From the human T2T-CHM13v2.0 reference genome, Homo sapiens: a stretch of DNA of 64,000 nucleotides. A program made the translations under genes and the position numbers. This document shows positions 30,541 through 64,000 of this stretch, one piece after another. The notes under the pieces were generated by a model. That model was not told where the DNA came from and did not search any database. It saw only the letters and a list, made by a program, of their open reading frames with translations. Within the stretch, counting starts at the first letter, position 1. Each line of letters opens with the position of its first letter. The stretch spans positions 1,632,001 to 1,696,000 of the forward strand of contig CP068257.2 of the NCBI GenBank assembly GCA_009914755.4, read 5' to 3'.

Positions 30541-33380
30541 CACCAGATATATATTTTATAGTGTACATAAAATATCAAGGTACCCAAACTATACATTATA
30601 TACTGTACATAAAATATGAAATTACATCAAATATATATTATATTAGGTACCTAAAATATGAAAGTACATCTAATATAGATTATATACTGTACAGAAAATA
30701 TCAAAGTACCCCAAATATATATTATAAACTGTACATGAAATATGAAAGTTCACAAACTATATATTATATACTGTACATAAAATATCAAAGTACTCAAGGT
30801 ATATATTCTATACTGTACAAAAAATATCAAAGTACCCAAAGCATGTATTATATACTGTACCTAAAATATGAAAGTACATCAAATATATATTTTATTCTGT
30901 ACATAAAATAACAAAGTACACCAGATATGTATTTTATAGTGTACATAAAATATCAAAGTACCGAAAGTATACATTACATACTGTACATAAAATATGAAAT
31001 TACATCAAATATATATTATATTAGGAACATAAAATATGAAAGTACATCAAATATAGATTATTAACTGTACAGAAAATATCAAAGAACCCCAAATATATAT
31101 TTTATACTGTACATGAAATATCAAACTTCACAAACTATATATTATATAATGTACATAAAATATCAAAGTACCCAAGGTATATATTCTATACTGTACAAAA
31201 AATATCAAAGTCCCCAAAGCATGTGTTATATACTGTACATAAAATATGAAAGTACATCAAATATAAATTTTATTCTGTACATAAAATATCAAAGTACACC
31301 AAATATATATTCTATACTGTACATAAAATATCAAAGTACCCAAACTATACATTATATACTGTACATAAAATATGAAATTACATCAAATATATATTATATT
31401 AGGTACATAAAATATGAAAGTACATCAAATATAGATTATATGCTGTACACTAAATACCAAAGTACCCCAAATATATATTTTATACTGTACATGAAATATC
31501 AACGTTCGCAAACTATATATTATATAATGTAGATAAAATATCAAAGTACCCAAGGTATATATTCTATACTGTACAAAAAATATCAAAGTATCCAAAGCAT
31601 GTATTATACACTGTACATAAAATATGAAAGTACATCAAATATATATATTATTCTGTACCTAAAATATCAAAGTACACCAGATATATATTCTATAGTGTAC
31701 ATAAAATATCAAAGTACCCAAACTATACATTATATACTGTACATAAAATATGAAATTACATCAAATATATATTATATTAGGTACGTAAAATATGAAAGTA
31801 CATCAAATATAGATTATATACTGTACATAAAATATAAAAGTACCCCAAATATATATTATATACTGTACATGAAATATCAAAATACACAAACTATATATTA
31901 TATAGTGTACATAAAATATCAAAGTACCCAAGGTATATGTTCTATGCTGTACAAAAAATATCAAAGTACCCAAACCATGTATTATATACTGTACATAAAA
32001 TATGAAATTACAACAAATATATATTTTATTCTGTACATAAAATATCAAAGTACACCAGATATATAATTTATAGTGTACATAAAATATCAAATTACCGAAA
32101 CTATACATTATATCGTGTACATAAAATATGAAATTACATCAAATATATATTATATTAGGTACGTAAAATATGAAAGTACATCAAATATAGATTATTAACT
32201 GTACATAAAATATCAAAGTACCCCAAATATATATTATACACTGTACATGAAATATCAAAGTTCACAAACTATATATTATATACTGTAGATAAAATATCAA
32301 AGTACACAAGGTATATATTCTATACTGTACAAAAAATATCAAAGTACCCAAAGCATGTATTATATACTGTACATAAAATATGAAAGTTCATCAAATATAT
32401 ATTTTATCCTGTACATAAAATAACAAAGTACACCAGATATATATTTTATAGTGTACATAAAATATCAAAGTACCCAAACTATACATTATATACTGTACAT
32501 AAAGTATGAAATTACATCAAATATATATTATATTAGGTACCTAAAATATGAAAGTACATCAAATATAGATTATTAACTGTACATAAAATATCAAAGAACC
32601 CCAAATATATATTATATACTGTATATGAAATATTAAACTTCACAAACTATATATTATATACTGTACATAAAATATCAAAGTACCCAAGGTATATATTCTA
32701 TACTGTACAAAAAATATCAAAGTACCCAAAGCATGTATTATATACTGTACATAAAATATGAAAGTACATCAAATATATATTTTATTCTGTACATAAAATA
32801 ACAAAGTACACCAGATATATATTTTATAGTGTACATAAAATATCAAAGTACCCAAACTATACATTACATACTGTACATAAAGTATGAAATTACATCAAAT
32901 ATATATTATATTAGGAACATAAAATATGAAAGTACATCAAATATAGATTATTAACTGTACATAAAATATCAAAGAACCCCAAATATATATTATATACTCT
33001 ACATGAAATATCAACGTTCGCAAACTATATATTATATACTGTAGAAAAAATATCAAAGTACCCAAGGTATATATTCTATACTGCACAAAAAATATCAAAG
33101 TATCCAAAGCATGTATTATACACTGTACATAAAATATGAAAGTACATCAAATATATATATTATTCTGTACCTAAAACATCAAAGTACACCAGATATATAT
33201 TTTATAGTGTACATAAAATATCAAAGTACCCAAACTATACATTATATACTGTACATAAAATATGAAATTACATCAAATATATATTATATTAGTTACCTAA
33301 AATATGAAAGTACATCAAATATACATTATTAACTGTACATAAAATATCAAAGTACCCCAAATATATATTATATACTGTAC
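30540..33380. repeat. Transition domain with mixed monomer variants (e.g. agattattaactgtac, ctgtacctaaaa, aaagaaccccaaat), still on a roughly 378-bp HOR
   Basis: The variant motif attattaactgtac recurs near 31060, 32195, 32570, 32950 and 33330 (about 378-bp steps after the first). Monomer order remains A-I-like. Confidence 0.6.
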
Positions 33381-36300
33381 ATGAAATATCAAAGTTCACA
33401 AACTCTATATTATATACTGTACATAAAATATCAAAGTACCCAAGGTATATATTCTATACTGTACAAAAAATATCAAAGTACCCAAAGCATGTATTATATA
33501 CTGTACATAAAAGATGAAAGTACATCAAATATATATTTTATTCTGTACATAAAATATCAAAGTACACCAGATATATATTCTATAGTGTACATAAAATATC
33601 AAAGTACCCAAACTATACATTATATACTGTATATAAAATATGAAATTACATCAAATATATATTAGGTACATAAAATATGAAAGTACATCAAATATGGATT
33701 ATATACTGTACATAAAATATCAATGTACCCCAAATATATATTATATACTGTTTATGAAATATCAAAGTTCACAAACTATTTATTATATACTGTATATAAA
33801 ATATCAAAGTACCCAAGGTATATATTCTATACTGTACAAAAAATATCAAAGTACCCAAAGCATGTATTATATACTGTACATAAAATATGAAAGTACATCA
33901 AATATATATTTAATTCTGTACATAAAATATCAAAGTACACCAGATATATATTCTATAGTGTACATAAAATATCAAAGTACCCAAACTATACATTATATAC
34001 TGTACATAAAATATGAAATTACATCAAATATATATTATATTAGGTACATAAAATATGAAAGTACATCAAATATAGATTATATACTGTACATAAAATATCA
34101 AAGTACCCCAAATATATATTATATACTGTACATGAAATATCAAAGTTCACAAACTATATATTATATACGGTACATAAAATATCAAAGTACCCAAGGTATA
34201 TATTCTATACTGTACAAAAAATATCAAAGTACCCAAAGCATGTATTATATACTGTACATAAAATATGAAAGTACATCAAATATATATTTTATTCTGTACA
34301 TAAAATATCAAAGTACACCAGATATATATTCTATAGTGTACATAAAATATCAAAGTACCCAAACTATACATTATATACTGTACATAAAATATGAAATTAC
34401 ATCAAATATATATTAGGTACATAAAATATGAAAGTACATCAAATATAGATTATATACTGTACATAAAATATCAAAGTACCCAAATATATATCATATACTG
34501 TACATGAAATATCAAAGTTCACAAACTATATATTATATACTGTACATAAAATATCAAAGTACCCAAGGTATATATTCTATACTGCACAAAAAATATCAAA
34601 GTACCCAAAGCATGTATTATAGACTGTATATAAAATATGAAATTACATCAAATATATATTTTATTCTGTACATAAAATATCAAAGTACACCAGATATATA
34701 TTCTATAGTGTACATAAAATAACAAAGTACACAAAGTATAAATTATATACTGTACATAAAATATGAAATTACATCAAATATATATTAGGTACATAAAATA
34801 TGAAAGTACATCAAATATAGATTTTATACTGTACATATAATATCAAAGTACCCCAAATATATATTTTGTACTCTACATGGAATATCAAAGTTCACAAACC
34901 ATATATTATATACTGTACATAAAATATCAAGGTACCCAAGGTATATATTCTATACTGTACAAAAAATATCAAAGTACCCAAAGCATGTATTATATACTGT
35001 ACATAAAATATGAAAGTACATCAAATATATATTTTATTCTGTACGTAAAATTTCAAAGTACACCAGATATATATTCTATAGTGTACATAAAATATCAAAG
35101 TACCCAAACTATAAACTATATACTGTACATAAAATATGAAATTACATCAAATATATATTAGGTACATAAAATATGAAAGTACATCAAATATAGATTATAT
35201 ACTGTACATAAAATATCAATGTACCCCAAATATATATTTTATACTCTACATGAAATATCAAAGTTCACAAACCATATATTGTATACTGTACATAAAATAT
35301 CAAAGTACCCAAGGTATATATTCTATACTATACAAAAAATATCAAAGTACCCAAAGCATGTATTATATACTGTACCTAAAATATGAAAGTACATCAAATA
35401 TATATTTTATTCTGTACATAAAATATCAAAGTACACCAGATATATATTCTATAGTGTACACAAAATATCAAAGTACCCAAACTATACATTACATACTGTA
35501 CATAAAATATGAAATTACATCAAATATATTTTATATTAGGTACATAAAATATGAAAGTACATCAAATATAGATTATACACTGTACATTAAATACCAAAGT
35601 ACCCCAAATATATATTTTATACTGTACATGAAATATCAAACTTCACAAATTATATATTATATAGTGTACATATAATATCAAAGTACCCAAGGTATATATT
35701 CTATACTGTACAAAAAATAACAAAGTACCAAAAGCATGTATAATATACAGTACATAAAATATGAAATTACATCAAATATATATTTTATTCTGTACATAAA
35801 ATATCAAAGTACACCAGATATATATTCTATAGTGTACATAAAATATAAAAGTACCCAAACTATACATTATATACTGTACATAAAATATGTAATTACATCA
35901 AATATATATTATATTAGGTACATAAAATATGAAAGTACATCAAATATAGATTATATACTGTACATTAAATACCAAAGTACCCCAAATATATATTTTATAC
36001 TGTACATGAAATATCAAAGTTCACAAACTATATATTATATACTGTACATAAAATAAAGTCCCCAAGATATATTCTATACTGTAGAAAAAATATCAAAGTA
36101 CCCAAAGCATGTATTATATACTGTATATAAAATATGAAAGTACATCAAATATATATTTTATTCTGTACATAATATATCAAAGTACACCAGATATATATTC
36201 TATAGTGTACATAAAATAACAAAGTACAAAAACTATAAATTATATACTGTACATAAAATATGAAATTACATCAAATATATATTAGGGACATAAAATATGA

Positions 36301-37830
36301 AAGTACATCAAATATAGATTATATACTGTACATAAAATTTCAATGTACCCCAAATATATATTTTATACTCTACATGAAATATCAAAGTTCACAAACCATA
36401 TATTATATACTGTACATAAAATATCAAAGTACCCAAGGTATATATTCTATACTATACAAAAAATATCAAAGTACCCAAAGCATGTATTATATACTGTACC
36501 TAAAATATGAATGTACATCAAATATATATTTTATTCTGTACATAAAATATCAAAGTACACCAGATATATATTCTATAGTGTACACAAAATATCAAAGTAC
36601 CCAAACTATACATTATATACTGTACATAAAATATGAAATTACATCAAATATATTTTATATTAGGTACATAAAATATGAAAGTACATCAAATATAGATTAT
36701 ATACTGTACATTAAATACCAAAGTACCCCAAATATATATTTTATACTGTACATGAAATATCAAAGTTCACAAACTATATATTATATACTGTACATATAAT
36801 ATCAAAGTACACACGGTATATATTCTATACTGTACAAAAAATAACAAAGTACCAAAAGCATGTATAATATACTGTACATAAAATATGAAAGTACATCAAA
36901 TATATATTTTATTCTGTACATAAAATATCAAAGTACACCAGATATATATTCTATAGTGTACATAAAATATCAAAGTACCCAAACTATACATTATATACTG
37001 TAAATAAAATATGAAATTACATCAAATATATTTTATATTAGGTACATAAAATATGAAAGTACATCAAATATAGATTATATACTGTACATAATATATCAAA
37101 GTAACCCAAATATATATTATATACTCTACATGAAATATCAAAGTTCACAAACAATATATTATATACTGTACATAAAATATCAAAGTACCCAAGGTATATA
37201 TTCTATACTGCACAAAAAAATCAAAGTACCCAAAGCATGTATTATATACTGTATATAAAATATGAAAGTACATCAAATATATATTTTATTCTCTACATAA
37301 TATATCAAAGTACACCAGATATATATTCTATAGTGTACATAAAATAACAAAGTACACAAACTATAAATTATATACTGTACATAAAATATGAAATTACATC
37401 AAATATATATTAGGTACATAAAATATGAAAGTACATCAAATATAGATTATATACTGTACATAAAATATCAATGTACCCCAAATATATATTTTATACTCTA
37501 CATGAAATATCAAAGTTCACAAACCATATATTGTATACTGTACATAAAATATGAAAGTACCCAAGGTATGTATTCTATACTGTGCAAAAAATATCAAAGT
37601 ACCCAAAGCATGTATTATATACTGTACATAAAATATGAAAGTACATCAAATATATATTTTATTCTGTACATATAATATCAAAGTACACCATATATATATT
37701 CTATAGTGTACATAAAATATCAAAGTACCCAAACTATACATTATATACTGTACATAAAATATGAAATTACATCAAATATATATTAGGTACATAAAATATG
37801 AAATTACATCAAATATAGATTATATACTGT
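33350..37830. repeat. 4.4-kb block that is duplicated about 25.4 kb downstream (partner at 58700-63200)
   Basis: Pseudo-ORF pairs: 33381/58743, 33640/59002 and 34504/59866 (offset 25362); 35136/60125 and 35736/60725 (offset 24989); 36260/61629 and 37388/62757 (offset 25369). Each pair differs by 0-3 residues. The offset shifts imply one internal deletion of about 373 bp (roughly one HOR) and one 7-bp indel between copies. Confidence 0.8.
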
Positions 37831-38424
37831 ACATATAATATCAAAGTACCCAAGGTATATATTCTATACTGTACAAAAAATATCAAAGTACCCAAAGCAT
37901 GTATTATATACTGTACATAAAATATGAAAGTACATCAAATATATATTTTATTCTGTACATAATATATCAAAGTACACCAGATATATATTCTATAGTGTAC
38001 ATAAAATAACAAAGTACCCAAACTATACATTATATACTGTACATAAAATATGAAATTACATCAAATATATATTATATTAGGTACATAAAATATGAAAGTA
38101 CATCAAATATAGATTATACACTGTACATAAAATATCAAAGTACCCCAAATATATATTATATACTCTACATGAAATATCAAAGTTCACAAACTATATATTA
38201 TATACTGTACATAAAATAAAGTCCCCAAGGTATATATTCTATACTGTAGAAAAAATATCAAAGTACCCAAAGCATGTATTATATACTGTATATAAAATAT
38301 GAAAGTACATCAAATATATATTTTATTCTGTACATAATATATCAAAGTACACCAGATATATATTCTATAGTGTACATAAAATAACAAAGTACAAAAACTA
38401 TAAATTATATACTGTACATAAAAT

Positions 38425-41400
38425 ATGAAATTACATCAAATATATATTAGGTACATAAAATATGAAAGTACATCAAATATAGATTATATACTGTACATAA
38501 AATTTCAATGTACCCCAAATATATATTTTATACTCTACATGAAATATCAAAGTTCACAAACCATGTATTATATACTGTACATAAAATATCAAAGTACCCA
38601 AGGTATATATTCTATACTATACAAAAAATGTCAAAGTACCCAAAGCATGTATTATATACTGTACCTAAAATATGAAAGTACATCAAATATATATTTTATT
38701 CTGTACATAAAATATGAAAGTACACCAGATATATATTCTATAGTGTACATAAAATATCAAAGTACCCAAACTATACATTGTATACTGTACATAAAATATG
38801 AAATTACATCAAATATATATTATATTAGGTACATAAAATATGAAAGTACATCAAATATAGATTATACACTGTACATAAAATATCAAAGTACCCAAAATAT
38901 ATATTATATACTCTACATGAAATATCAAAGTTCACAAACTATATATTATATACTGTACATAAAATAATGTCCCCAAGGTATATATTCTATACTGTAGAAA
39001 AAATATCAAAGTACCCAAAGCATGTATTATATACTGTATATAAAATATGAAAGTACATCAAATATATATTTTATTCTGTACATAATATATCAGAGTACAC
39101 CAGATATATATTCTATAGTGTACATAAAATAACAAAGTACAAAAACTATAAATTATATACTGTACATAAAATATGAAATTACATCAAATATATATTAGGT
39201 ACATAAAATATGAAAGTACATCAAATATAGATTATATACTGTACATAAAATTTCAATGTACCCCAAATATATATTTTATACTCTACATGAAATATCAAAG
39301 TTCACAAACCATATATAATATAATGTACATAAAATATCAAAGTACCCAAGGTATATATTCTATACTATACAAAAAATATCAAAGTACCCAAAGCATGTAT
39401 TATATACTGTACCTAAAATATGAATGTACATCAAATATATATTTTATTCTGTACATAAAATATCAAAGTACACCAGATATATATTCTATAGTGTACACAA
39501 AATATCAAAGTACCCAAACTATGCATTATATACTGTACATAAAATATGAAATTACATCAAATATATTTTATATTAGGTACATAAAATATGAAAGTACATC
39601 AAATATAGATTATATACTGTACATTAAATACCAAAGTACCCCAAATATATATTTTATACTGTACATGAAATATCAAAGTTCACAAACTATATATTATATA
39701 CTGTACATATAATATCAAAGTACACAAGGTATATATTCTATACTGTACAAAAAATAACAAAGTACCAAAAGCATGTATAATATACTGTACATAAAATATG
39801 AAAGTACATCAAATATATATTTTATTCTGTACATAAAATATCAAAGTACACCAGATATATATTCTATAGTGTACATAAAATATCAAAGTACCCAAACTAT
39901 ACATTATATACTGTACATAAAATATGAAATTACATCAAATATATTTTATATTAGGTACATAAAATATGAAAGTACATCAAATATAGATTATATACTGTAC
40001 ATAATATATCAAAGTAACCCAAATATATATTATATACTCTACATGAAATATCAAAGTTCACAAACAATATATTATATACTGTACATAAAATATCAAAGTA
40101 CCCAAGGTATATATTCTATACTGCACAAAAAAATCAAAGTACCCAAAGCATGTAGTATATACTGTATATAAAATATGAAAGTTCATCAAATATATATTTT
40201 ATTCTCTACGTAATATATCAAAGTACACCAGATATATATTCTATAGTGTACATAAAATATCAAAGTACCCAAACTATACATTATATACTGTACATAAAAT
40301 ATGAAATTACATCAAATATATATTAGGTACATAAAATATGAAAGTACATCAAATATAGATTATATACTGTACATAAAATATCAATGTACCCCAAATATAT
40401 ATTTTATACTTTACATGAAATATCAAAGTTCACAAACCATATATTGTATACTGTACATAAAATATCAAAGTACCCAAGGTATATGTTCTATACTGTACAA
40501 AAAATATCAAAGTACCCAAAGCATGTATTATATACTGTACATAAAATATGAAAGTACATCAAATATATATTTTATTCTGTACATAAAATATCAAAGTACA
40601 CCAGATATATATTCTATAGTGTACATAAAATATCAAAGTACCCAAACTATACATTATATACAGTAAATAAAATATGAGATTACATCAAATATATATTATA
40701 TTAGGTACATAAAATATGAAAGTACATCAACTATAGATTATATACTGTACATTAAATACCAAAGTACCCCAAATATATATTTTATACTGTACATGAAATA
40801 TCAAAGTTCACAAACTATATATTATATACTGTACATAAAATATCAAAGTACCCAAGGTATATATTCTATACTGTACAAAAAATATCAAAGTACCCAAAGC
40901 ATGTATTATATACTGTACCTAAAATATGAAAGTACATCAAATATATATTTTATTCTGTACATAAAATATCAAAGTACACCAGATATATATTCTATAGTGT
41001 ACATAAAATATGAAAGTACCCAAACTATACATTATATACTGTACATAAAATATGAAATTACATCAAATATATATTATATTAGGTACATAAAATATGAAAG
41101 TACATCAAATATAGATTATACACTGTACATAAAATATCAAAGTACCCAAAATATATATTATATACTCTACATGAAATATCAAAGTTCACAAACTATATAT
41201 TATATACTGTACATAAAATAAAGTCCCCAAGATATATATTCTATACTGTAGAAAAAATATCAAAGTACCCAAAGCATGTATTATATACTGTATATAAAAT
41301 ATGAAAGTACATCAAATATATATTTTATTCTGTACATAATATATCAAAGTACACCAGATATATATTCTATAGTGTACATAAAATAACAAAGTACAAAAAC

Positions 41401-44400: not shown

Positions 44401-45600
44401 ACTATAAATTATATACTGTACATAAAATATGAAATTACATCAAATATATATTAGGTACATAAAATATGAAAGTACATCAAATATAGATTATATACTGTAC
44501 ATAAAATTTCAATGTACCCCAAATATATATTTTATACTCTACATGAAATATCAAAGTTCACAAACCATATATTATATACTGTACATAAAATATCAAAGTA
44601 CCCAAGGTATATATTCTATACTATACAAAAAATACCAAAGTACCCAAAGCATGTATTATATACTGTACCTAAAATATGAATGTACATCAAATATATATTT
44701 TATTCTGTACATAAAATATCAAAGTACACCAGATATATATTCTATAGTGTACACAAAATATCAAAGTACCCAAACTATACATTACATACTGTACATAAAA
44801 TATGAAATTACATCAAATATATTTTATATTAGGTACATAAAATATGAAAGTACATCAAATATAGATTATATACTGTACATTAAATACCAAAGTACCCCAA
44901 ATATATATTTTATACTGTACATGAAATATCAAAGTTCACAAACTATATATTATATACTGTACATATAATATCAAAGTACCCAAGGTATATATTCTATACT
45001 GTACAAAAAATAACAAAGTACCAAAAGCATGTATAATATACTGTACATAAAATATGAAAGTACATCAAATATATATTTTATTCTGTACATAAAATATCAA
45101 AATACACCAGATATATATTCTATAGTGTACATAAAATATCAAAGTACCCAAACTATACATTATATACTGTAAATAAAATATGAAATTACATCAAATATAT
45201 TTTATATTAGGTACATAAAATATGAAAGTACATCAAATATAGATTATATACTGTACATAATATATCAAAGTAACCCAAATATATATTATATACTCTACAT
45301 GAAATATCAAAGTTCACAAACAATATATTATATACTGTACATAAAATATCAAAGTACCCAAGGTATATATTCTATACTGCACAAAAAAATCAAAGTACCC
45401 AAAGCATGTATTATATACTGTATATAAAATATGAAAGTACATCAAATATATATTTTATTCTCTACATAATATATCAAAGTACACCAGATATATATTCTAT
45501 AGTGTACATAAAATAACAAAGTACACAAACTATAAATTATATACTGTACATAAAATATGAAAGTACATCAAATATATATTAGGTACATAAAATATGAAAG
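38425..45600. repeat. 3002-bp super-repeat: two full copies (38425-41426, 41427-44428) plus a truncated third copy lacking about 748 bp; related 2.9-kb units extend back to about 35.1 kb
   Basis: Pseudo-ORF pairs at +3002: 38425/41427 (2 aa differences), 39173/42175 (identical), 39773/42775 (identical), 40301/43303 (1 difference), 40793/43795 (1 difference). 44429 matches 42175 at +2254 (3002 minus 748). 36260 matches 39173 at +2913. The boundary monomer variant acataaaataaagtccccaag recurs near 38215, 41218 and 44220, also 3002-3003 bp apart. Confidence 0.8.
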
Positions 45601-51600: not shown

Positions 51601-52990
51601 AAGTGCATCAAATATAGATTATATGCTGTACATAAAATATCAATGTACCCCAAATATATATTTTATACTCTACATGAAATATCAAAGTTCACAATCCATA
51701 CATTATATACTGTACATAAAATATCAAATTACCCAAGGTATATATTCTATACTGTACAAAAAATATCAAAGTACCCAAAGCATGTATTATATACTGTACA
51801 TAAAATATGAAAGTACATCAAATATATATTTTATTCTGTACATAAAATAATAAAGTACACCAGATATATATTCTATAGTGTACATAAAATATCAAAGTAC
51901 CCAAACTATACATTACATACTGTACATAAAGTATGAAATTACATCAAATATATATTATATTAGGAACATAAAATATGAAAGTACATCAAATATAGATTAT
52001 TAACTGTACATAAAATATCAAAGAACCCCAAATATATATTATATACTCTACATGAAATATCAAAGTTCGCAAACTATATATTATATACTGTAGATAAAAT
52101 ATCAAAGTACCCAAGGTATATATTCTATACTGTACAAAAAATATCAAAGTATCCAAAGCATGTATTATACACTGTACATAAAATATGAAAGTACATCAAA
52201 TATATATATTATTCTGTACCTAAAACATCAAAGTACACCAGATATATATTTTATAGTGTACATAAAATATCAAAGTACCGAAACTATACATTATATACTG
52301 TACATAAAATATGAAATTACATCAAATATATATTATATTAGGTACATAAAATATGAAAGTACATCTAGTATAGATTATATACTGTACATAAAATATCAAA
52401 GTACACCAAATATATATGATATACCGTACATGAAATATTAAAGTTCACAAACTATATATTATATACTGTAGATAAAATATAAAAGGACCCAAGGTATATA
52501 TTCTATACTGTACAAAAAATATCAAAGTACCCAAAGCATGTATTATATACTATACATAAAATATGAAAGTACATCAAATATATATTTTATTCTGTACATA
52601 AAATAACAAAGTACACCAGATATATATTTTATAGTGTACATAAAATATCAAAATACTCAAACTATACATTACATACTGTACATAAAATATGAAAGTATAT
52701 CAAATATATATTATATTAGGAACATAAAATATGAAAGTACATCAAATATAGATTATTAACTGTACATACAATATCAAAGTACCCCAAATATATATTATAT
52801 ACTGTACATGAAATATCAAAGTTCACAAACTATATATTATATACTGTACATAAAATATCAAAGTACCCAAGGTATATATTCTATACTGTACAAAAAATAT
52901 CAAAGTACCCAAAGCATGTATTATATACTGTACATAAAATATGAAAGTACATCAAATATATATTTTATTCTGTACTTAAAATATCACAGT
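45100..52990. repeat. Three tandem copies of a 2629-bp super-repeat
   Basis: Pseudo-ORF triplets at exact +2629 steps: 45557/48186/50815, 45640/48269/50898, 45976/48605/51234, 46043/48672/51301, 46302/48931/51560, 46902/49531/52160, 47550/50179/52808. Translations are identical or differ by 1 aa. Nucleotide comparison of 45170-45600 with 47799-48229 is essentially identical. Divergence begins near 52980. Confidence 0.85.
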
Positions 52991-53939
52991 ACACCAGATA
53001 TATATTTTATAGTGTACATAAAATATCAAAGTACCCAAACTATACATTATATACTGTACATAAAATATGAAATTACATCAAATATATATTATATTAGTTA
53101 CCTAAAATATGAAAGTACATCAAATATAGATTATATACTGTACATAAAATATCAGAGTACCCCAAATATATATTATATACTGTACATGAAATATCAAAGT
53201 TCACAAACTATATATTATATACTGTACATAAAATATCAAAGTACCCAAGGTATATATTCTATACTATACAAAAAATATCAAAGTACCCAAAGCATGTATT
53301 ATATACTGTACATAAAAGATGAAAGTACATCAAATATATATTTTATTCTGTACATAAAATAACAAAGTACACCGGATATATATTTTATAGTGTACATAAA
53401 ATATCAAAGTACCCAAACTATACATTACATACTGTACATAAAATATGAAATTACATCAAATATATATTATATTAGTTACCTAAAATATGAAAGTACATCA
53501 AATATAGATTATATACTGTACAGAAAATATGAAAGTACCCCAAATATATATTATACACTGTACATGAAATATGAAAGTTCACAAACTATATATTATATAC
53601 TGTACATAAAATATCAAAGTACCCAAGGTATATATTCTATACTGTACAAAAAATATCAAAGTACCCAAAGAATGTATTATATACTGTACATAAAATATGA
53701 AAGTACATCAAATATATATTTGATTCTGTACATAAAATAACAAAGTACACCAGATATGTATTTTATAGTGTACATAAAATATCAAAGTACTGAAACTATA
53801 CATTACACACTGTACATAAAATATGCAATTACATCAAACATATATTATATTAGGAACATAAAATATGAAAGTACATCAAATATAGATTATTAACTGTACA
53901 TAAAATATCAAAGAACCCCAAATATATATTATATACTGT

Positions 53940-55400
53940 ACATGAGATATCAAACTTCACAAACTATATATTATATACTGTACATAAAATATCAAAGTAC
54001 CCAAGGTATATATTCTATACTATACAAAAAATATCAAAGTACCCAAAGCATGTATTATATACTGTACATAAAAGATAAAAGTACATCAAATATATATTTT
54101 ATTCTGTACATAAAATATCAAAGTACACCAGATATATATTATATAGTGTACATAAAATATCAAAGTACCCAAACTATACATTATATACTGTACATAAAAT
54201 ATGAAATTACATCAAATATATATTATATTAGGTACATAAAATATGAAAGTACATCAAATATATATTATATACTGTACATAAAATATAAAAGTACCCCAAA
54301 TATATATTATATACTGAACATGAAATATCAAAATACACAAACTATATATTATATACTGTACAAAAAATATCAAAGTACCCAAGGTATATATTCTATACTG
54401 TATAAAAAATATCAAAGTACCCAAAGCATGTATTATATACTGTACATAAAATATGAGAGTACATCAAATATATATTTTATTCTGTACATAAAATATCAAA
54501 GTACACCAGATATATATTTTATAGTGTACATAAAATATCAAAGTACCCAAACTATACATTATATACTGTACATAAAATATGAAATTACATCAAATATATA
54601 TTATATTAGGTACATAAAATATGAAAGTACATAAAATATAGATGATATACTGTACATAAAATATCAAAGTAGCCCAAATATATATTATACAGTGTACATG
54701 AAATATCAAAATTTACAAAATATATATTATATAATGTACATAAAATATCAAAATACCCAAAACAAGTATTATATACTGTACATAAAAGATGAAAGTACAT
54801 CAAATATATATTTTATTCTGTACATAAAATATCAAAGTACACCAGATATATATTTTATAGTGTACATAAAATATCAAGGTAACCAAACTATACATTATAT
54901 ACTGTACATAAAATATGAAATTACATCAAATATATATTATATTAGGTACGTAAAATATGAAATTACATCAAATACAGATTATATACTGTTCATAAAATAT
55001 AAAAGTACCCCAAATATATATTATATACTGTACATGAAATATCAAAATACAGAAACTATATATTATATACTGTACAAAAAATATCAAAGTACCCAAAGCA
55101 AGTATTATATACTGTACATAAAAGATGAAAGTACATCAAATATATATTTTATTCTCTACGTAAAATATCAAAGTACACCAGATATATATTTTATAGTGTA
55201 CATAAAATATCAAAGTACCCAAACTATACATTACATACTGTACATAAAATATGAAATTACATGAAATATATATTATTTTAGGAACATAAATATGAAAGTA
55301 CATCAAATATAGATTATTAACTGTACATAGAATATCAAAGAACCCCAAATATATATTATATACTGTACATGAGATATCAAACTTCACAAACTATATATTA
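53940..55400. repeat. Island of domain-B-type monomers, including an X-block copy, embedded about 24 kb away from the domain-B region
   Basis: Minus-strand pseudo-ORF 54606-54803 is identical to those at 20145, 22245, 25899 and 27999. + strand pseudo-ORF 54692 (MYMKYQNLQNIYY...) matches the X-block type. The B-type monomers ataaaatataaaagtacccc and caaaatacacaaac are present. Confidence 0.65.
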
Positions 55401-58400
55401 TATACTGTACATAAAATATCAAACTACCCAAGGTATATATTCTATACTGTACAAAAAATATCAAAATACCCAAAGCATGTATTATATACTGTACATAAAA
55501 TATGAAAGTATATCAAATATATATTTTATTCTGTACATAAAATATCAAAGTACACCAGATATATATTTTATAGTGTACATAAAATATCAAAGTACCCAAA
55601 CTATACATTATATACTGTACATAAAATATGAAATCACATCAAATGTATATTATATTAGGTACATAAAATATGAAAGTACTTCGAGTATAGATTATTTACT
55701 GTACATAAATTATCAAAGTACCCCAAATATATATGATATACTGTACATGAAATATCAAAGTTCACAAACGATATATTATATACTGTAGATAAAATATCAA
55801 AGTACCCAAGGTTTATATTCTATACTGTACAAAAAATATCAAAGTACCCAAAGCATGTATTATATACTGTACATAAAAGATGAAAGTACATCAAATATAT
55901 ATTTTATTCTGTACATAAAGTAACAAAGTACACCAGATATATATTTTATAGTGTACAGAAAATATGAAAGTACCCAGCTATACATTACATACTGTACATA
56001 AAATGTGGAATTACATCAAATATATATTATATTAGGTACATAAAATATGAAAGTACATCAAATATAGATTATATACTGTACATAAAATATCAAAGTACTC
56101 CAAATATATATTACATACTCTACATGAAATATCAAAGTTCACAAACTATATATTATATACTGTACATAAAATATCAAAGTACCCAAGGTATATATTCTAT
56201 ACTGTACAAAAAATATCAAAGTACCCAAAGCATGTATTATATACAGTAAATAAAATATGAAAGTACATCAATTATATATTTTATTCTGTACATAATATAT
56301 CAAAGTACACCAGATATATATTCTATAGTGTACATAAAATAAGAAAGTACACAAACTATAAATTATATACTGAACATAAAATATGAAATTACATCAAATA
56401 TATATTAGGTACATAAAATATGAAAGTACATCAAATATAGATTATATACTGTACATAAAATATCAATGTACCCCAAATATATATTTTATACTCTACATGA
56501 AATATCAAAGTTTAGAAACCATATATTGTATACTGTACATAAAATATCAAAATACCCAAGGTATATATTCTATACTGTACAAAAAATATCAAAGTACCCA
56601 AAGCATGTATTATATACTGTACATAAAATATGAAAGTACATCAAATATATATTTTATTCTGTACATAAAATATCAAAGTACACCAGATATATATTCTATA
56701 GTGTACATAAAATATCAAAGTACACAAACTATACACTATATAATATACATAAAATATGAAATTACATCAAATATATATTAGGTACATAAAATATGAAAGT
56801 ACATCAAATATAGATTATATACTGTACATAAAATATCAAAGTACCCAAATATATATCATATACTGTACATGAAATATCAAAGTTCACAAACTATATATTA
56901 TATACTGTACATAAAATATCAAAGTACCCAAGGTATATATTCTATACTGCACAAAAAATATCAAAGTACCCAAAGCATGTATTATATACTGTATATAAAA
57001 TATGAAATTACATCAAATATATATTTTATTCTGTACATAAAATATCAAAGTACACCAGATATATATTCTATACTGTACATAAAATAACAAAGTACACAAA
57101 GTATAAATTATATACTGTACATAAAATATGAAATTACATCAAATATATATTAGGTACATAAAATATGAAAGTACATCAAATATAGATTATATACTGTACA
57201 TATAATATCAAAGTACCCAAAATATATATTTTGTACTCTACATGGAATATCAAAGTTCACAAACCATATATTATATACTGTACATAAAATATCAAGGTAC
57301 ACAAGGTATATATTCTATACTGTACAAAAAATATCAAAGTACCCAAAGCATGTATTATATACTGTACATAAAATATGAAAGTACATCAAATATATATTTT
57401 ATTCTGTACGTAAAATATCAAAGTACACCAGATATATATTCTATAGTGTACATAAAATATCAAAGTACCCAAACTATACATTATATACTGTACATAAAAT
57501 ATGAAATTACATCAAATATATATTATATTAGGTACATAAAATATGAAAGTACATCAAATATAGATTATATACTATATAATAAAAATACCAATGTACCCAA
57601 ATATATATTTTATACTGTACATGAAATATCAAAGTTCACAAACTATATATTATATACTGTACATAAAATATCAAAGTACCCAATGTATATATTCTATACT
57701 GTACAAAAAATATCAAAGTACCCAAAACATGTATTATATACTGTACATAAAATATGAAAGTACAACAAATATATATTTTATTCCGTACATAAAATATCAA
57801 AGTACACCAGATATATATTCTATAGCGTACATAAAATATCAAAGTACACAGACTATACATTATATACTGTACATAAAATATGAAATTACATCAAATATAT
57901 ATTATATTAGGTACATAAAATATGAAAGTACATCAAATATAGATTATATACTCTACATTAAATACGAAAGTACCCAAATATATATTATATACTCTCAATG
58001 AAATATCAAAGTTCACAAACTATATATTATATACTGTACATAAAATATCAAAGTACCCAAGGTGTATATTCTATACTGTACAAAAATATCAATGTACCCA
58101 AAGCGTGTATTATGTACTGTATATAAAATATGAAAGTACATCAAATATATATTTTATTCTGTACATAAAATATCAAAGTACACCAGATATATATTCTATA
58201 GTGTACATAAAATAACAAAGTACACAAACTATACATTATATACTGTACATAAAATATGAAATTACATCAAATATATATTAGGTACATAAAATATGAAAGT
58301 ACATCAAATATAGATTATATACTCTACATAAAATATCAATGTACCCCAAATATATAATTTATACTCTACATGAAATATCAAAGTTCACAAACCATATATT

Positions 58401-58699
58401 ATATACTGTCCATAAAATATCAAAGTACCCAAGGTATATATTCTATACTATACAAAAAATATCAACGTACCCAAAGCATGTATTATATACTGTACCTAAA
58501 ATATGAAAGTACATCAAATATATATTTTATTCTGTACATAAAATAACAAAGTACACCAGATATATATTCTATAGTGTACATAAAATAACAAAGTACACAA
58601 ACTATAAATTATATACTGTACATAAAATATGAAATTACATCAAATATATATTAGGTACATAAAATATGAAAGTACATCAAATAAAGATTATATACTGTA

Positions 58700-61600
58700 C
58701 ATATAATATCAATGTACCCCAAATATATATTTTATTCTCTACATGAAATATCAAAGTTCACAAACCATATATTATATACTGTACATAAAATATCAAAGTA
58801 CCCAAGGTATATATTCTATACTGTACAAAAAATATCAAAATACCCAAAGCATGTATTATATACTGTACATAAAATATGAAAGTACATCAAATATATATTT
58901 TATTCTGTACATAAAATATCAAAGTACACCAGATATATATTCTATAGTGTACATAAAATATCAAAGTACCCAAACTATACATTATATACTGTACATAAAA
59001 TATGAAATTACATCAAATATATATTAGGTACATAAAATATGAAAGTACGTCAAATATGGATTATATACTGTACATAAAATATCAATGTACCCCAAATATA
59101 TATTATATACTGTTTATGAAATATCAAAGTTCACAAACTATATATTATATACTGTATATAAAATATCAAAGTACCCAAGGTATATATTCTATACTGTACA
59201 AAAAATATCAAAGTACCCAAAGCATGTATTATATACTGTACATAAAATATGAAAGTACATCAAATATATATTTAATTCTGTACATAAAATATCAAAGTAC
59301 ACTAGATATATATTCTATAGTGTACATAAAATATCAAAGTACCCAAACTATACATTATATACTGTACATAAAATATGAAATTACATCAAATATATATTAT
59401 ATTAGGTACATAAAATATGAAAGTACATCAAATATAGATTATATACTGTACATAAAATATCAAAGTACCCCAAATATATATTATATACTGTACATGAAAT
59501 ATCAAAGTTCACAAACTATATATTATATACGGTACATAAAATATCAAAGTACCCAAGGTATATATTCTATACTGTACAAAAAATATCAAAGTACCCAAAG
59601 CATGTATTATATACTGTACATAAAATATGAAAGTACATCAAATATATATTTTATTCTGTACATAAAATATCAAAGTACACCGGATATATATTCTATAGTG
59701 TACATAAAATATCAAAGTACCCAAACTATACATTATATACTGTACATAAAATATGAAATTACATCAAATATATATTAGGTACATAAAATATGAAAGTACA
59801 TCAAATATAGATTATATACTGTACATAAAATATCAAAGTACCCAAATATATATCATATACTGTACATGAAATATCAAAGTTCACAAACTATATATTATAT
59901 ACTGTACATAAAATATCAAAGTACCCAAGGTATATATTCTATACTGCACAAAAAATATCAAAGTACCCAAAGCATGTATTATAGACTGTATATAAAATAT
60001 GAAATTACATCAAATATATATTTTATTCTGTACATAAAATATCAAAGTACACCAGATATATATTCTATAGTGTACATAAAATATCAAAGTACCCAAACTA
60101 TAAACTATATACTGTACATAAAATATGAAATTACATCAAATATATATTAGGTACATAAAATATGAAAGTACATCAAATATAGATTATATACTGTACATAA
60201 AATATCAATGTACCCCAAATATATATTTTATACTCTACATGAAATATCAAAGTTCACAAACCATATATTGTATACTGTACAAAAAATATCAAAGTACCCA
60301 AGGTATATATTCTATACTATACAAAAAATATCAAAGTACTCAAAGCATGTATTATATACTGTACCTAAAATATGAAAGTACATCAAATATATATTTTATT
60401 CTGTACATAAAATATCAAAGTACACCAGATATATATTCTATAGTGTACACAAAATATCAAAGTACCCAAACTATACATTACATACTGTACATAAAATATG
60501 AAATTACATCAAATATATTTTATATTAGGTACATAAAATATGAAAGTACATCAAATATAGATTATACACTGTACATTAAATACTAAAGTACCCCAAATAT
60601 ATATTTTATACTGTACATGAAATATCAAACTTCACAAATTATATATTATATAGTGTACATATAATATCAAAGTACCCAAGGTATATATTCTATACTGTAC
60701 AAAAAATAACAAAGTACCAAAAGCATGTATAATATACAGTACATAAAATATGAAAGTACATCAAATATATATTTTATTCTGTACATAAAATATCAAAGTA
60801 CACCAGATATATATTCTATAGTGTACATAAAATATAAAAGTACCCAAACTATACATTATATACTGTACATAAAATATGTAATTACATCAAATATATATTA
60901 TATTAGGTACATAAAATATGAAAGTACATCAAATATAGATTATATACTGTACATTAAATACCAAAGTACCCCAAATATATATTTTATACTGTACATGAAA
61001 TATCAAAGTTCACAAACTATATATTATATACTGTACATAAAATATCAAAGTAACCAAGGTATATATTCTATACTGTACAAAAAATATCAAAGTACCCAAA
61101 GCATGTATTATGTACTGTACCTAAAATATGAAAGTACATCAAATATATATTTTATTCTGTACATAAAATATCAAAGTACACCAGATATATATTCTATAGT
61201 GTACATAATATATCAAAGTACCCAAACTATACATTATATACTGTACATAAAATATGAAATTACATCAAATATATATTATATTAGGTACATAAAATATGAA
61301 AGTACATCAAATATAGATTATACACTCTACATAAAATATCAAAGTACCCAAAATATATATTATATACTCTACATGAAATATCAAAGTTCACAAACTATAT
61401 ATTATATACTGTACATAAAATAAAGTCCCCAAGGTATATATTCTATACTGTAGAAAAAATATCAAAGTACCCAAAGCATGTATTATATACTGTATATAAA
61501 ATATGAAAGTACATCAAATATATATTTTATTCTGTACATAATATATCAAAGTACACCAGATATATATTCTATAGTGTACATAAAATAACAAAGTACAAAA

Positions 61601-63200
61601 ACTATAAATTATATACTGTACATAAAATATGAAATTACATCAAATATATATTAGGTACATAAAATATGAAAGTACATCAAATATAGATTATATACTGTAC
61701 ATAAAATTTCAATGTACCCCAAATATATATTTTATACTCTACATGAAATATCAAAGTTCACAAACCATATATTATATACTGTACATAAAATATCAAAGTA
61801 CCCAAGGTATATATTCTATACTATACAAAAAATATCAAAGTACCCAAAGCATGTATTATATACTGTACCTAAAATATGAATGTACATCAAATATATATTT
61901 TATTCTGTACATAAAATATCAAAGTACACCAGATATATATTCTATAGTGTACACAAAATATCAAAGTACCCAAACTATACATTATATACTGTACATAAAA
62001 TATGAAATTACATCAAATATATTTTATATTAGGTACATAAAATATGAAAGTACATCAAATATAGATTATATACTGTACATTAAATACCAAAGTACCCCAA
62101 ATATATATTTTATACTGTACATGAAATATCAAAGTTCACAAACTATATATTATATACTGTACATATAATATCAAAGTACCCAAGGTATATATTCTATACT
62201 GTACAAAAAACAACAAAGTACCAAAAGCATGTATAATATACTGTACATAAAATATGAAAGTACATCAAATATATATTTTATTCTGTACATAAAATATCAA
62301 AGTACACCAGATATATATTCTATAGTGTACATAAAATATCAAAGTACCCAAACTATACATTATATACTGTAAATAAAATATGAAATTACATCAAATATAT
62401 TTTATATTAGGTACATAAAATATGAAAGTACATCAAATATAGATTATATACTGTACATAATATATCAAAGTAACCCAAATATATATTATATACTCTACAT
62501 GAAATATCAAAGTTCACAAACAATATATTATATACTGTACATAAAATATCAAAGTACCCAAGGTATATATTCTATACTGCACAAAAAAATCAAAGTACCC
62601 AAAGCATGTATTATATACTGTATATAAAATATGAAAGTACATCAAATATATATTTTATTCTCTACATAATATATCAAAGTACACCAGATATATATTCTAT
62701 AGTGTACATAAAATAACAAAGTACACAAACTATAAATTATATACTGTACATAAAATATGAAATTACATCAAATATATATTAGGTACATAAAATATGAAAG
62801 TACATCAAATATAGATTATATACTGTACATAAAATATCAATGTACCCCAAATATATATTTTATACTCTACATGAAATATCAAAGTTCACAAACCATATAT
62901 TGTATACTGTACATAAAATATCAAAGTACCCAAGGTATGTATTCTATACTGTACAAAAAATATCAAAGTACCCAAAGCATGTATTATATACTGTACATAA
63001 AATATGAAAGTACATCAAATATATATTTTATTCTGTACATATAATATCAAAGTACACCATATATATATTCTATAGTGTACATAAAATATCAAAGTACCCA
63101 AACTATACATTATATACTGTACATAAAATATGAAATTACATCAAATATATATTAGGTACATAAAATATGAAAGTACATCAAATATAGATTATATACTGTA
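58700..63200. repeat. Downstream partner of the 33350-37830 block (dispersed intra-array segmental duplication)
   Basis: Same pseudo-ORF correspondences as for the 33350-37830 block. In addition 56383-57100 resembles 34030-34722 at offset 22365 (pseudo-ORF 56869 vs 34504). Confidence 0.8.
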
Positions 63201-64000
63201 CATAAAATATCAAAGTACCCCAAATATATATTATATACTCTACAGGAAATATCAAAGTTCACACACTATATATTATATACTGTACATAAAATATCAAAGT
63301 ACCCAAGGTATATATTCTATACTGTACAAAAAATATCAAAGTACCCAAAGCATGTATTATATACTGTATATAAAATATGAAAGTACATCAAATATATATT
63401 TTATTCTGTACATAATATATCAAAGTACACCAGATATATATTCTATAGTGTACATAAAATAACAAAGTACACAAACTATACATTATATACTGTACATAAA
63501 ATATGAAATTACATCAAATATATATTAGGTTCATAAAATATGAAAGTACATCAAATATAGATTATATACTGTACATAAAATATCAATGTACCCCAAATAT
63601 ATATTTTATACTTTACATGAAATATCAAAGTTCACAAACCATATATTGTATACTGTACATAAAATATCAAAGTACCCAAGGTATATGTTCTATACTGTAC
63701 AAAAAATATCAAAGTACCCAAAGCATGTATTATATACTGTACATAAAATATGAAAGTACATCAAATATATATTTTATTCTGTACATAAAATATCAAAGTA
63801 CACCAGATATATATTCTATAGTGTACATAAAATATCAAAGTACCCAAACTATACATTATATACTGTACATAAAATATGAAATTACATCAAATATATATTA
63901 TATTAGGTACATAAAATATGAAAGTACATCAAATATAGATTATATACTGTACATAAAATATCAAAGTACCCCAAATATATATTATATACTCTACATGAAA

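What the first reader, a model, noticed from the sequence alone, without database searches (positions are those of the whole stretch)
33350..63200. Non-adjacent intra-array segmental duplication: 33.35-37.83 kb is copied at 58.7-63.2 kb (about 25.4 kb apart) with a one-HOR indel
Unlike the tandem super-repeats, these two 4.4-kb blocks are separated by about 21 kb of other array sequence yet are about 98-99% identical. The offset changes from 25362 to 24989 to 25369 along the block, implying a deletion or insertion of about one HOR plus a 7-bp indel. A shorter piece, 56.38-57.1 kb, is a third relative of the 34.0-34.7 kb segment. This suggests long-range duplication or gene conversion within the array, or a much larger tandem period of at least 25 kb of which this window sees only part.
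Basis: seen in the sequence. Interest (0 to 1): 0.5.

Follow-up and report, generated by a model that had tools for sequence, protein, structure and literature searches.

The report
Multi-HOR duplication inside a satellite array
Two stretches of about 4.4 kb, 25 kb apart inside a 42-bp satellite array of the human HSat1A type, are true copies of one another (99.5% identical), which is the ordinary way such arrays grow by misaligned recombination and is not a new kind of feature.

Summary
The window is one uninterrupted, single-orientation satellite: a 42-bp monomer, 22% GC and a 9-monomer HOR of 378/373 bp. This matches published descriptions of human HSat1A.

Copy A (33406-37818) and copy B (58768-63187) carry the same ordered series of distinct HOR variants. 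They differ at 17 of 4056 aligned bases. Unrelated HORs differ at about 22 of 378.

The "one-HOR indel plus 7 bp" is really three events:
- B lost one 373-bp HOR; the third relative at 56.4-57.5 kb still has it.
- A lost one 378-bp HOR, leaving a hybrid HOR; three other copies keep the B arrangement.
- A carries a 2-bp indel.

A also lacks 84 bp (two monomers) at 37819.

The pairing is unique only for 33.4-36.05 kb. The 36.07-37.5 kb part belongs to a family of at least five copies. There is no 25-kb periodicity left of 33406. On the right, the unique pairing stops about 0.8 kb from the window end, so the block may be the start of a larger macro-repeat.

Best reading: unequal-exchange duplication, later modified by HOR-scale deletions and younger local amplifications. 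This is known satellite behaviour and of low interest.

The parts
1..64000 (+). Host array: uninterrupted 42-bp satellite in one orientation, organised as a 9-monomer HOR (ABCDEFGHI, 378 or 373 bp). It matches the published description of human HSat1A (SAR).
   Evidence: TRF finds one array with period 42 and 1530 copies. GC is 21-22%. Wrap-around monomer decomposition and typing give 174 HOR units. No inverted repeats of at least 900 nt were reported in the stretch scanned for them, 32-64 kb. For HSat1A, papers report a 42-bp monomer, 23% GC and a 378-bp 9-mer. The HSat1A primer core matches 453 times at up to 2 mismatches.
33406..34721 (+). Copy A, segment 1 (HOR variants 17, 18, 19). It pairs with 58768-60083 at offset 25362.
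   Evidence: 7 mismatches in 1316 bp. The next-best place in the window is 83% ungapped. HOR pairs: 33697/59059 = 2 differences, 34075/59437 = 1, 34448/59810 = 4. The flank to the left drops to 13 mismatches in 121 bp, and the next unit shows 35 differences.
34722..35052 (+). HOR present in A and in relative C but absent from B. The event is a 373-bp deletion in B; the 42 bp at 34680-34721 equal 35053-35094 and form the crossover tract.
   Evidence: B 60042-60083 matches both A flanks. B carries A-left alleles upstream and A-right alleles downstream of the junction. C (57087-57417) keeps this unit with 4 mismatches.
35053..36055 (+). Copy A, segment 2 (HOR variants 08, 20 and the head of the hybrid unit). 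It pairs with 60042-61044 at offset 24989.
   Evidence: 4 mismatches in 1003 bp. Next best is 97.4%. HOR pairs 35193/60182 = 2 and 35571/60560 = 2, with 10 as the next best for the latter.
35949..36316 (+). Hybrid 368-bp HOR in A. Its head comes from the B-type unit at 60938 and its tail from the 370-bp unit at 61316. The crossover lies within 36003-36055, and there is an additional 2-bp loss near 36065.
   Evidence: A carries all 7 B-left-specific alleles up to 36002, then the 8-bp-deleted signature of the 370-bp unit from 36056. M3 (43738+44116) and M2 keep the unfused B arrangement.
36067..37818 (+). Copy A, segment 3 (HOR variants 08, 21, 22 and the first nine monomers of a 16-monomer unit). 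It pairs with 61436-63187 at offset 25369. The part 36067-37514 is also found at 38980, 41982 and 44236.
   Evidence: 6 mismatches in 1737 bp over 36067-37803, plus one more at 37804. Other copies are 99.4-99.5% identical. The multiple alignment shows a star-like relation up to B 62883, and 3 sites shared only by A and B after that.
37819..38074 (+). Possible continuation of copy A after an 84-bp (A+B monomer) deletion. It pairs with 63272-63527 at offset 25453, but the pairing is not unique.
   Evidence: 3 mismatches in 256 bp, against 4/256 for several other places. A hybrid A/C monomer sits at the junction. The HOR string here is ABCDEFGHICDEFGHI.
58768..63187 (+). Copy B (possibly extending to 63527). 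HOR variants run 17 18 19 08 20 02 07 08 21 22 plus one further unit.
   Evidence: Private changes are split evenly between the copies: 7 A-derived, 7 B-derived, 6 ambiguous.
61045..61435 (+). Sequence present in B (and in M2/M3) but fused out of A. It represents one 378-bp HOR equivalent.
   Evidence: The offset changes from 24989 to 25367/25369. B 60934-62883 is collinear with 43734-45683 without any gap, at 99.4%.
63188..63271 (+). Two monomers (A and B types, 84 bp) present in B but missing from A.
   Evidence: The offset changes from 25369 to 25453. The junction sequences are shown.
56401..57478 (+). Third relative C, an older partial copy of A 34036-35113. It lies 2997 bp upstream of the equivalent part of B.
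   Evidence: 98.2% identity over 1078 bp. 10/926 differences over A 34188-35113. HOR 56813 differs from 34448 by 2 and from 59810 by 6. C spans the unit deleted in B.
38011..44634 (+). Younger tandem super-repeat (period 3002 bp, 2.2 copies) lying between A and B. It contains further copies of the 07-08-21 module.
   Evidence: 7 mismatches in 3622 bp. HOR map. Divergence 0.19% against 0.46% for A/B, p=0.03.
45036..52975 (+). Younger tandem super-repeat (period 2629 bp, 3 copies) lying between A and B.
   Evidence: 13 mismatches in 5311 bp. HOR variants 22 26 27 28 29 30 31 occur three times. Divergence 0.24% against 0.46% for A/B, p=0.05.

Best explanation
Copies A and B are paralogous copies of one stretch of 11-13 HORs inside an HSat1A-type satellite array. 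I think the most likely origin is out-of-register homologous recombination within the array, by unequal sister-chromatid or homologue exchange or by break-induced replication restarted out of register. That event duplicated a large multi-HOR segment in tandem. On this view, 58767/58768 is the junction between the end of unit 1 and the start of unit 2, and the window shows only the first 5.2 kb of unit 2.

Shown by the sequence:
- Each copy later lost one whole HOR by the same kind of in-phase, out-of-register exchange. The crossover tracts are 42-53 bp of perfect identity, and the deletions left a hybrid HOR in A and a fused junction in B.
- A also lost two monomers.
- Each copy accumulated about 0.23% private substitutions.

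Inferred, with modest statistical support:
- Unit 1 was later lengthened by younger local tandem amplifications of one extra 3002-bp copy and two extra 2629-bp copies. The original period would then have been about 17 kb rather than 25.4 kb.
- The mechanism of the initial duplication and the existence of the rest of unit 2 are also inferred.

No gene or function is implied. This is array turnover.
For: - A collinear run of distinct HOR variants occurs in the same order and orientation in both copies, at 0-4 differences per HOR against a background median of 22.
- There is a sharp left edge at 33405/33406. The alignment continues in HOR phase to the left, but only at background identity.
- Indel polarity is resolved by outgroups. 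C keeps the HOR missing from B. M2 and M3 keep the HOR pair that is fused in A.
- All junctions are in-phase hybrids with 42-53 bp crossover tracts.
- Private changes split 7 A-derived to 7 B-derived.
- A/B divergence (0.46%) exceeds that of the intervening 3002-bp repeat (0.19%, p=0.03) and the 2629-bp repeat (0.24%, p=0.05).
- Unique A/B pairing runs from the start of B to 63187, only 813 bp from the window end. The A side beyond 38.0 kb is a zone of younger amplification. This is what a truncated view of a larger duplication would look like.
- The literature names unequal crossover, gene conversion and BIR as the proposed mechanisms for satellite array change (PMC11034957). It also reports hyper-local changes of periodicity and macro-repeats in human satellite arrays, including new HORs in HSat1 (bioRxiv 10.1101/2021.07.12.452052).
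Against: - The rest of the putative second unit lies outside the window, so tandem continuation is untested.
- The last ~0.8 kb of the window does not continue the A-side sequence uniquely. B 63532-63863 is identical to a unit lying 2.25 kb further along on the A side, and the last 137 bp match that A-side sequence at only about 94%. The alternative register d=25826 gives 5/352, which is no better than several unrelated places.
- For 36.07-37.5 kb, A and B are not demonstrably sisters. The relation with M1, M2 and M3 is star-like, and one informative site groups B with M3.
- The age contrasts with the intervening repeats are only marginally significant.
Confidence: 0.5

Rival explanations
1. 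Isolated patch. A tract of about 4.4-4.7 kb was copied non-reciprocally between two pre-existing, distant, in-phase positions of the array, without any larger tandem unit. The route would be long-tract gene conversion or synthesis-dependent repair, or BIR with template switching.
For: The left boundary is sharp, with the flank at background identity. Unique pairing ends at 63187-63527, and B then resembles a different unit (40330-40661, 0 mismatches in 332 bp) before diverging. The array as a whole is a mosaic of patches of 0.3-2 kb, each with a different closest relative. One example is 666 bp that is 100% identical at three places.
Against: A tract of at least 4.4 kb is long for a conversion event (general knowledge, not tested here). 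The patch would have to end within 0.8 kb of the window edge by coincidence. The A-side end coincides with a zone of later amplification, which can explain the loss of collinearity without a true tract end.
Confidence: 0.25
2. Relic of a once-local cluster. A and B were neighbouring members of the local super-repeat family of about 3 kb, and were pushed apart only by later amplification between them (layered expansion).
For: The right third of the block belongs to a family of at least five copies with periods of 2254-3002 bp. At least 8.3 kb of the spacer is young tandem repeat. C lies 2997 bp from the equivalent part of B.
Against: The spacer includes about 6 kb (52.75-58.69 kb) of HOR units with no close relative, at 10 or more differences, except unit 56813 of relative C. 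It also includes the 26-31 variants that are absent from A and B. The spacer is therefore not all young expansion. The left part (variants 17, 18, 20) exists only in A and B.
Confidence: 0.12
3. Assembly artefact. One real segment was placed twice in a hard-to-assemble satellite.
For: Near-identical satellite repeats are a classic source of false duplication. No read data are available here.
Against: The copies differ by three structured indels of HOR or monomer scale, each with a clean hybrid junction, and by 20 substitutions (10 transitions, 10 transversions) split evenly between the copies. Each copy is embedded in different flanking HOR variants.
Confidence: 0.05

Closest known systems
Human satellite 1A (HSat1A, formerly 'SAR', classical satellite I) arrays with a 378-bp 9-mer HOR, as described for T2T-CHM13 (prevalent in the chr13 array)
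   Same: The monomer is 42 bp, GC is about 22-23%, the dominant period is 9 monomers or 378 bp, the array has a single orientation, and HOR structure and periodicity vary locally. The HSat1A primer core matches 17 of 19 bases, 453 times.
   Different: I could not align the window to a human reference or to the Dfam SAR model, because no such database is available here. Species and chromosome are therefore inferred and not shown. Metagenome contigs carrying the same satellite are only 85-97% identical.
Macro-repeats, layered expansions and hyper-local nested-repeat expansion in human centromeric satellite arrays (Altemose et al., bioRxiv 10.1101/2021.07.12.452052)
   Same: There are nested duplications of multi-HOR segments at several scales and ages: 99.98%, 99.8%, 99.5% and about 97.6% identity layers. 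Young amplified blocks sit between older related flanks.
   Different: The scale here is small (kilobases to tens of kilobases) and the family is HSat1A, not alpha satellite. No symmetry around a centre can be assessed from 64 kb.
Unequal crossover model of satellite evolution (Smith 1976, from my own knowledge) and BIR-based models (bioRxiv 10.1101/731430; PMC11034957)
   Same: All three secondary indels are whole-HOR or whole-monomer deletions with in-phase hybrid junctions and short perfectly identical crossover tracts, as these models predict.
   Different: The sequence alone cannot tell reciprocal unequal exchange from BIR or from replication slippage of large units.
Gene conversion patches within tandem arrays
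   Same: There is a mosaic of short stretches whose closest relative changes along the array. Examples are HOR 34448, which is closer to 56813 than to 59810, and 666 bp identical at three sites.
   Different: The A/B block is much longer than the other patches, and it carries length changes that conversion alone does not produce.

Membership tests
HSat1A / SAR (human classical satellite I) | 42-bp monomer | tested here: met
   TRF period 42 with 1530 copies. Autocorrelation peaks at multiples of 42. 1395 of 1532 monomers are exactly 42 bp.
HSat1A / SAR (human classical satellite I) | Extreme AT richness (about 23% GC) | tested here: met
   GC is 21.2-22.2% in every 2-kb bin. The published value for clones is 23%.
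HSat1A / SAR (human classical satellite I) | Predominant 9-monomer (378 bp) higher-order period | tested here: met
   ABCDEFGHI units of 378/373 bp span the whole window. The published description is 378-bp tandem 9-mer repeats.
HSat1A / SAR (human classical satellite I) | Sequence match to the reference consensus (Dfam DF0001062) or to assembled human arrays | not testable with these tools
   There is only indirect support. The HSat1A primer F1 core matches at up to 2 of 19 mismatches 453 times, against 0.01 expected. The consensus rotates to a 17+25-bp unit pair that fits my recollection of the classical A/B units. No human sequence database is available.
Large tandem (macro-repeat) duplication by unequal exchange | Collinear series of distinct HOR variants in the same order and orientation, at identity well above array background | tested here: met
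   8 complete positional HOR pairs show 0-4 differences against a median of 22.
Large tandem (macro-repeat) duplication by unequal exchange | Copy length equals the offset, meaning homology continues for a full period and the copies abut | tested here: inconclusive
   There is no homology at this offset to the left of 33406. That fits 33406 being the start of unit 1. On the right, only 5.2 kb of unit 2 is visible. 4.4 kb pairs uniquely and the last 0.8 kb is uninformative.
Large tandem (macro-repeat) duplication by unequal exchange | Junctions in phase with the monomer and HOR register | tested here: met
   The offset keeps HOR phase across the left edge. All indel junctions are in-phase hybrids.
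Gene-conversion tract | Both ends sharp with flanks at background identity, and no net length change | tested here: inconclusive
   The left end is sharp. The right end is ambiguous. Length change cannot be assessed without an unconverted allele.
Gene-conversion tract | Tract length in the usual range (up to about 1-2 kb; general knowledge) | tested here: not met
   The uniquely paired block spans at least 4.4 kb.

The most novel reading that the evidence does not exclude
The block is a truly dispersed, non-tandem intra-array copy. On this reading a segment of about 4.5 kb and 12 HORs was transplanted 17-25 kb away, by long-tract conversion, BIR template switching or re-insertion of an excised circle. 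That would document a mode of HSat1A homogenisation that acts over tens of kilobases without changing the local tandem order.
Probability: 0.2. Interest if true: 0.35.

Novelty: already known. Interest (0 to 1): 0.15.

Why it matters
The finding matters little beyond bookkeeping. It is a clean, base-resolved example of how a human-type AT-rich satellite array turns over. It shows multi-HOR duplication, whole-HOR deletions with hybrid junctions, and successive layers of local amplification. If the window comes from a complete assembly, the ordered HOR-variant markers (variants 17-18-19-08-20) and the three indel junctions could serve as unique anchors. They could be used to validate the assembly or to compare haplotypes in this array. 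The finding does not point to a gene, a regulatory element or a new mechanism.

Tried and rejected
- Whole-window megablast against itself returned only 16 HSPs and missed the block. I replaced it with k-mer diagonal chaining.
- A brute-force scan of all offsets timed out.
- Global pairwise alignment with affine gaps stayed on the HOR-shifted diagonal and under-reported identity in the middle kilobase, giving 95%. Diagonal mismatch profiles corrected this.
- The repeat finder was swamped by the 42-bp period. It was useful only for showing in-phase against out-of-phase identity and for reporting no inverted repeats.
- MAFFT placed the gap in A at the wrong HOR, so I used only the columns after B 61436.
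- My first guess for the 2-bp shift at junction 2 (d=25371) had the wrong sign. The correct value is d=25367.
- Searching the literature for the monomer as a text string found nothing.
- The metagenome scan found the same satellite in 23 contigs, but none is closer than about 97-99% over short stretches. None covers A, B or the flank, and the long contigs show no clean internal repeats. One contig is a chimera with 61% GC DNA.
- I considered extending the homology past 38074 through a 2.25-kb gap (d=23202) or a 373-bp gap (d=25826). Both rest on about 330 bp or on non-unique matches, so neither is claimed.
- ORFs up to 380 aa on the + strand were rejected as genes. The 42-bp unit is 14 codons, and one frame of the consensus has no stop codon.
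Full report
**What the window is.** The whole 64 kb is one uninterrupted tandem array.
- TRF reports a single array with period 42 and 1530 copies.
- GC is 21-22% throughout.
- No inverted repeats of at least 900 nt were reported in the 32-64 kb scan.
- A wrap-around alignment to the consensus split the sequence into 1532 monomers. These fall into nine types, A to I, that recur in the fixed order ABCDEFGHI, giving a 9-monomer HOR of 378 bp. The 373-bp form has a shortened I monomer. There are 174 units in all.
- Structural variants mark sub-domains. 12-monomer units occur in 4.3-12 kb. 6- and 8-monomer units fill 15-30.7 kb, where GC skew also differs.
- These properties match published descriptions of human satellite 1A (HSat1A, 'SAR'): 42 bp, about 23% GC, predominantly 378-bp 9-mers.
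- The core of a published HSat1A primer matches 453 times at up to 2 mismatches, against 0.01 expected.
- I could not align the window to a human reference, so the species assignment is an inference.

**Checking the observation.** Exact 100-mer and 60-mer matches recover precisely the three reported offsets, 25362, 24989 and 25369. Mismatch lists along each diagonal give these results:

| Copy A | Copy B | Differences |
|---|---|---|
| 33406-34721 | 58768-60083 | 7/1316 |
| 35053-36055 | 60042-61044 | 4/1003 |
| 36067-37803 | 61436-63172 | 6/1737 |
| 37819-38074 (after an 84-bp gap) | 63272-63527 | 3/256 |

- The total is 20/4312, or 99.5% identity.
- Background is much lower. The median distance between HOR units is 22 differences per ~378 bp. 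Of 6656 unit pairs more than 10 kb apart, only 18 have 2 or fewer differences, and six of those are positional A/B pairs.
- For the three main segments, B is the unique best match in the window: 99.5% vs 83%, 99.6% vs 97.4%, and 99.65% vs 98.0%.
- The fourth segment is not distinctive, with 3/256 against 4/256 elsewhere. I treat it as only a possible extension.

**Anatomy of the differences.** The offset changes are not 'one HOR plus 7 bp'. They are three separate events.
1. A has 373 bp (34722-35052 plus a 42-bp ambiguous tract) that B lacks. B carries A-left alleles before the junction and A-right alleles after it. The third relative C (56401-57478) spans this unit with 4 mismatches. B therefore suffered a one-HOR deletion.
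2. B has one HOR equivalent (61045-61435) that A lacks. A's 368-bp unit at 35949 carries all seven alleles specific to B's unit 60938 up to position 36002. It then carries the 8-bp-deleted signature of the 370-bp unit 61316 from 36056 onward, so the crossover lies within 36003-36055. The unfused arrangement is also found at 43734-45683 and 40732-41820. A therefore suffered a 378-bp deletion, plus a 2-bp loss. The '7 bp' is (378-373)+2.
3. A lacks the A and B monomers (84 bp) present at B 63188-63271, which leaves a hybrid A/C monomer.

All junctions are in monomer phase. This is the signature of out-of-register homologous exchange.

**How unique is the pairing?** An HOR-variant map, built by clustering units at 4 or fewer differences, reads as follows:
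- A = 17 18 19 x 08 20 (02/07 hybrid) 08 21 22 + 16-mer
- B = 17 18 19 08 20 02 07 08 21 22 + two units + 25

Variants 17, 18 and 20 occur only in A and B. Variant 19 also occurs in C, and the A copy is closer to C (2 differences) than to B (4). The module 02-07-08-21-22 occurs again at 43738-45613. Related forms occur twice in the 3002-bp super-repeat at 38.0-44.6 kb, and partly at 9759-10506.

In a multiple alignment of these copies, the region B 61436-62883 is star-like. A has 3-4 private changes, B has 1 and M3 has 4, and one site groups B with M3. Only beyond 62884 do A and B share three sites against the rest. The specific A/B sisterhood therefore rests on 33.4-36.05 kb, on 37.5-37.8 kb, and on the shared adjacency of the left and right parts.

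**Boundaries and the 25-kb period.**
- The left edge is sharp. There are 13 mismatches in the 121 bp before 33406, and the next unit pair differs at 35 positions.
- Along the same HOR-index diagonals, all units to the left of A show 19-36 differences. Across the whole left part of the window, the median of the best of three diagonals is 22. There is thus no 25-kb periodicity on the left.
- On the right, unique pairing ends at 37818/63187, which is 813 bp from the window end.
- The remaining sequence is uninformative. B 63532-63863 is identical to 40330-40661, a unit that lies 2.25 kb further along on the A side, and then drops to about 94%. An alternative register with one extra HOR in B gives 5/352, no better than unrelated places.
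- The A side beyond 38.0 kb is a zone of younger amplification, with 3002-bp and 748-bp periods.
- The block could therefore be the visible start of a much longer second unit. The window cannot decide this.

**Relative ages.**

| Repeat pair | Divergence | Test against A/B (one-sided binomial) |
|---|---|---|
| A/B | 0.46% | reference |
| 3002-bp repeat | 0.19% | p=0.03 |
| 2629-bp repeat | 0.24% | p=0.05 |
| 3642-bp repeat | 0.06% | p=0.0008 |
| 5754-bp repeat | 0.02% | p=4e-6 |
| M3/B | 0.62% | not different from A/B, p=0.27 |

- C differs from A by 1.08% (10/926). By my own count of the mismatch positions listed, it differs from B by about 1.3%. It is therefore an older paralogue, giving ((A,B),C).
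- If the two intervening super-repeats are younger, as the figures suggest, the A-B spacing at the time of duplication was about 17 kb (25.4 - 3.0 - 5.3).
- About 6 kb of the spacer (52.75-58.69 kb) has no close relative, apart from unit 56813 of relative C. The copies were therefore never simply adjacent.
- Private changes polarised by 25-mer counts split 7 A-derived, 7 B-derived and 6 ambiguous. Transitions equal transversions at 10:10. This is what two independently ageing copies would show, and it argues against a trivial assembly duplicate.

**Mechanism.**
- Shown: whole-HOR and two-monomer deletions by in-phase, out-of-register homologous exchange, with crossover tracts of 42-53 identical bases.
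- Inferred: the original duplication arose in the same way but at a larger misalignment. Such an event produces a tandem macro-repeat whose second unit begins at 58768.
- Unequal crossover, gene conversion and BIR are the mechanisms discussed for human satellite arrays (PMC11034957 and bioRxiv 10.1101/731430).
- Macro-repeats, layered expansion and hyper-local changes of periodicity have been described for T2T-CHM13 satellites, including new HORs in HSat1.
- Rivals are a dispersed copy made by long-tract conversion or template switching, a relic of a local cluster separated by expansion, and an assembly artefact. Each is weighed in the rival explanations.

**Comparison and verdict.** This is an instance of known satellite-array dynamics in a known satellite family. 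The indel interpretation needed correction. The choice between a 'large tandem period' and an 'isolated copy' needs flanking sequence. Interest is low and novelty is 'already known'.

Noticed in passing
window 14681-30677: This is a distinct sub-domain built from 6-monomer (ABCDEI, 252 bp) and 8-monomer (ABDEFGHI, 336 bp) HOR variants mixed with 9-mers. GC skew is weaker here (-0.20 against -0.27). A 5754-bp super-repeat (18390-23140 = 24144-28894) differs at only 1 of 4751 bases, making it the youngest layer in the window.
   Followed up: partly
window 10880-11546 and 37445-38111: Both units are 16-monomer variants, ABCDEFGHICDEFGHI, with the same kind of A/C hybrid monomer at the junction. 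They are only 95.7% identical (29 differences in 667), whereas B, the close copy of 37445, has the intact I-A-B-C order. This implies either a recurrent 84-bp deletion or an older shared variant combined with a conversion in B.
   Followed up: partly
window 9759-10506: This is a further distant copy of the first two units (370-bp '07' plus '08') of the multi-copy module. It is 99.3% identical to 61382-62080, 51.6 kb away, and 99.0% identical to 38099-38779. Long-range relatives therefore also bridge the 15-30.7 kb sub-domain.
   Followed up: no
window 54641-55311: Two 8-monomer ABDEFGHI units sit alone among 9-mers. The first differs by only 5 positions from units of the 15-30.7 kb sub-domain, such as 20180, which is 34 kb away.
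   Followed up: no
window 36867-37532, 50294-50959, 62236-62901: A 666-bp stretch is 100% identical at three places. The first units of the other two 2629-bp repeat copies (45242, 47871) share one derived change. This suggests either conversion or a particular order of amplification.
   Followed up: no
window 4358, 5617, 8000, 9259, 11547: 12-monomer HOR variants ABCDEFDEFGHI, with an internal DEF duplication, recur within a 3642-bp super-repeat. That repeat (2968-6103 = 6610-9745) has 2 mismatches in 3136 bp.
   Followed up: no
whole window, + strand: There are 75 ORFs of at least 90 aa, up to 380 aa, and all but one are on the + strand. This is a mechanical artefact. The 42-bp unit is 14 codons, and the frame TAT TAT ATA CTG TAC ATA AAA TAT CAA AGT ACA CCA AAT ATA has no stop codon. 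It is not evidence of coding.
   Followed up: yes
A/B and the younger repeat pairs across the window: Substitutions between near-identical copies show transitions equal to transversions: 10:10 for A/B, 14:14 for the young tandem repeats and 6:6 for M3/B. This agrees with the low Ti/Tv reported for alpha satellite and HSat1A in bioRxiv 10.64898/2026.09.03.749043.
   Followed up: partly
loci L001-L023 (metagenome contigs): An exact 42-bp D-type monomer occurs in 23 stretches of DNA drawn from metagenome contigs of many unrelated projects. Satellite identity to the window is 85-99% over the aligned parts. This is most simply host or human contamination. L023 is 61% GC with a 55-bp satellite end, so it is a likely chimera.
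   Followed up: partly
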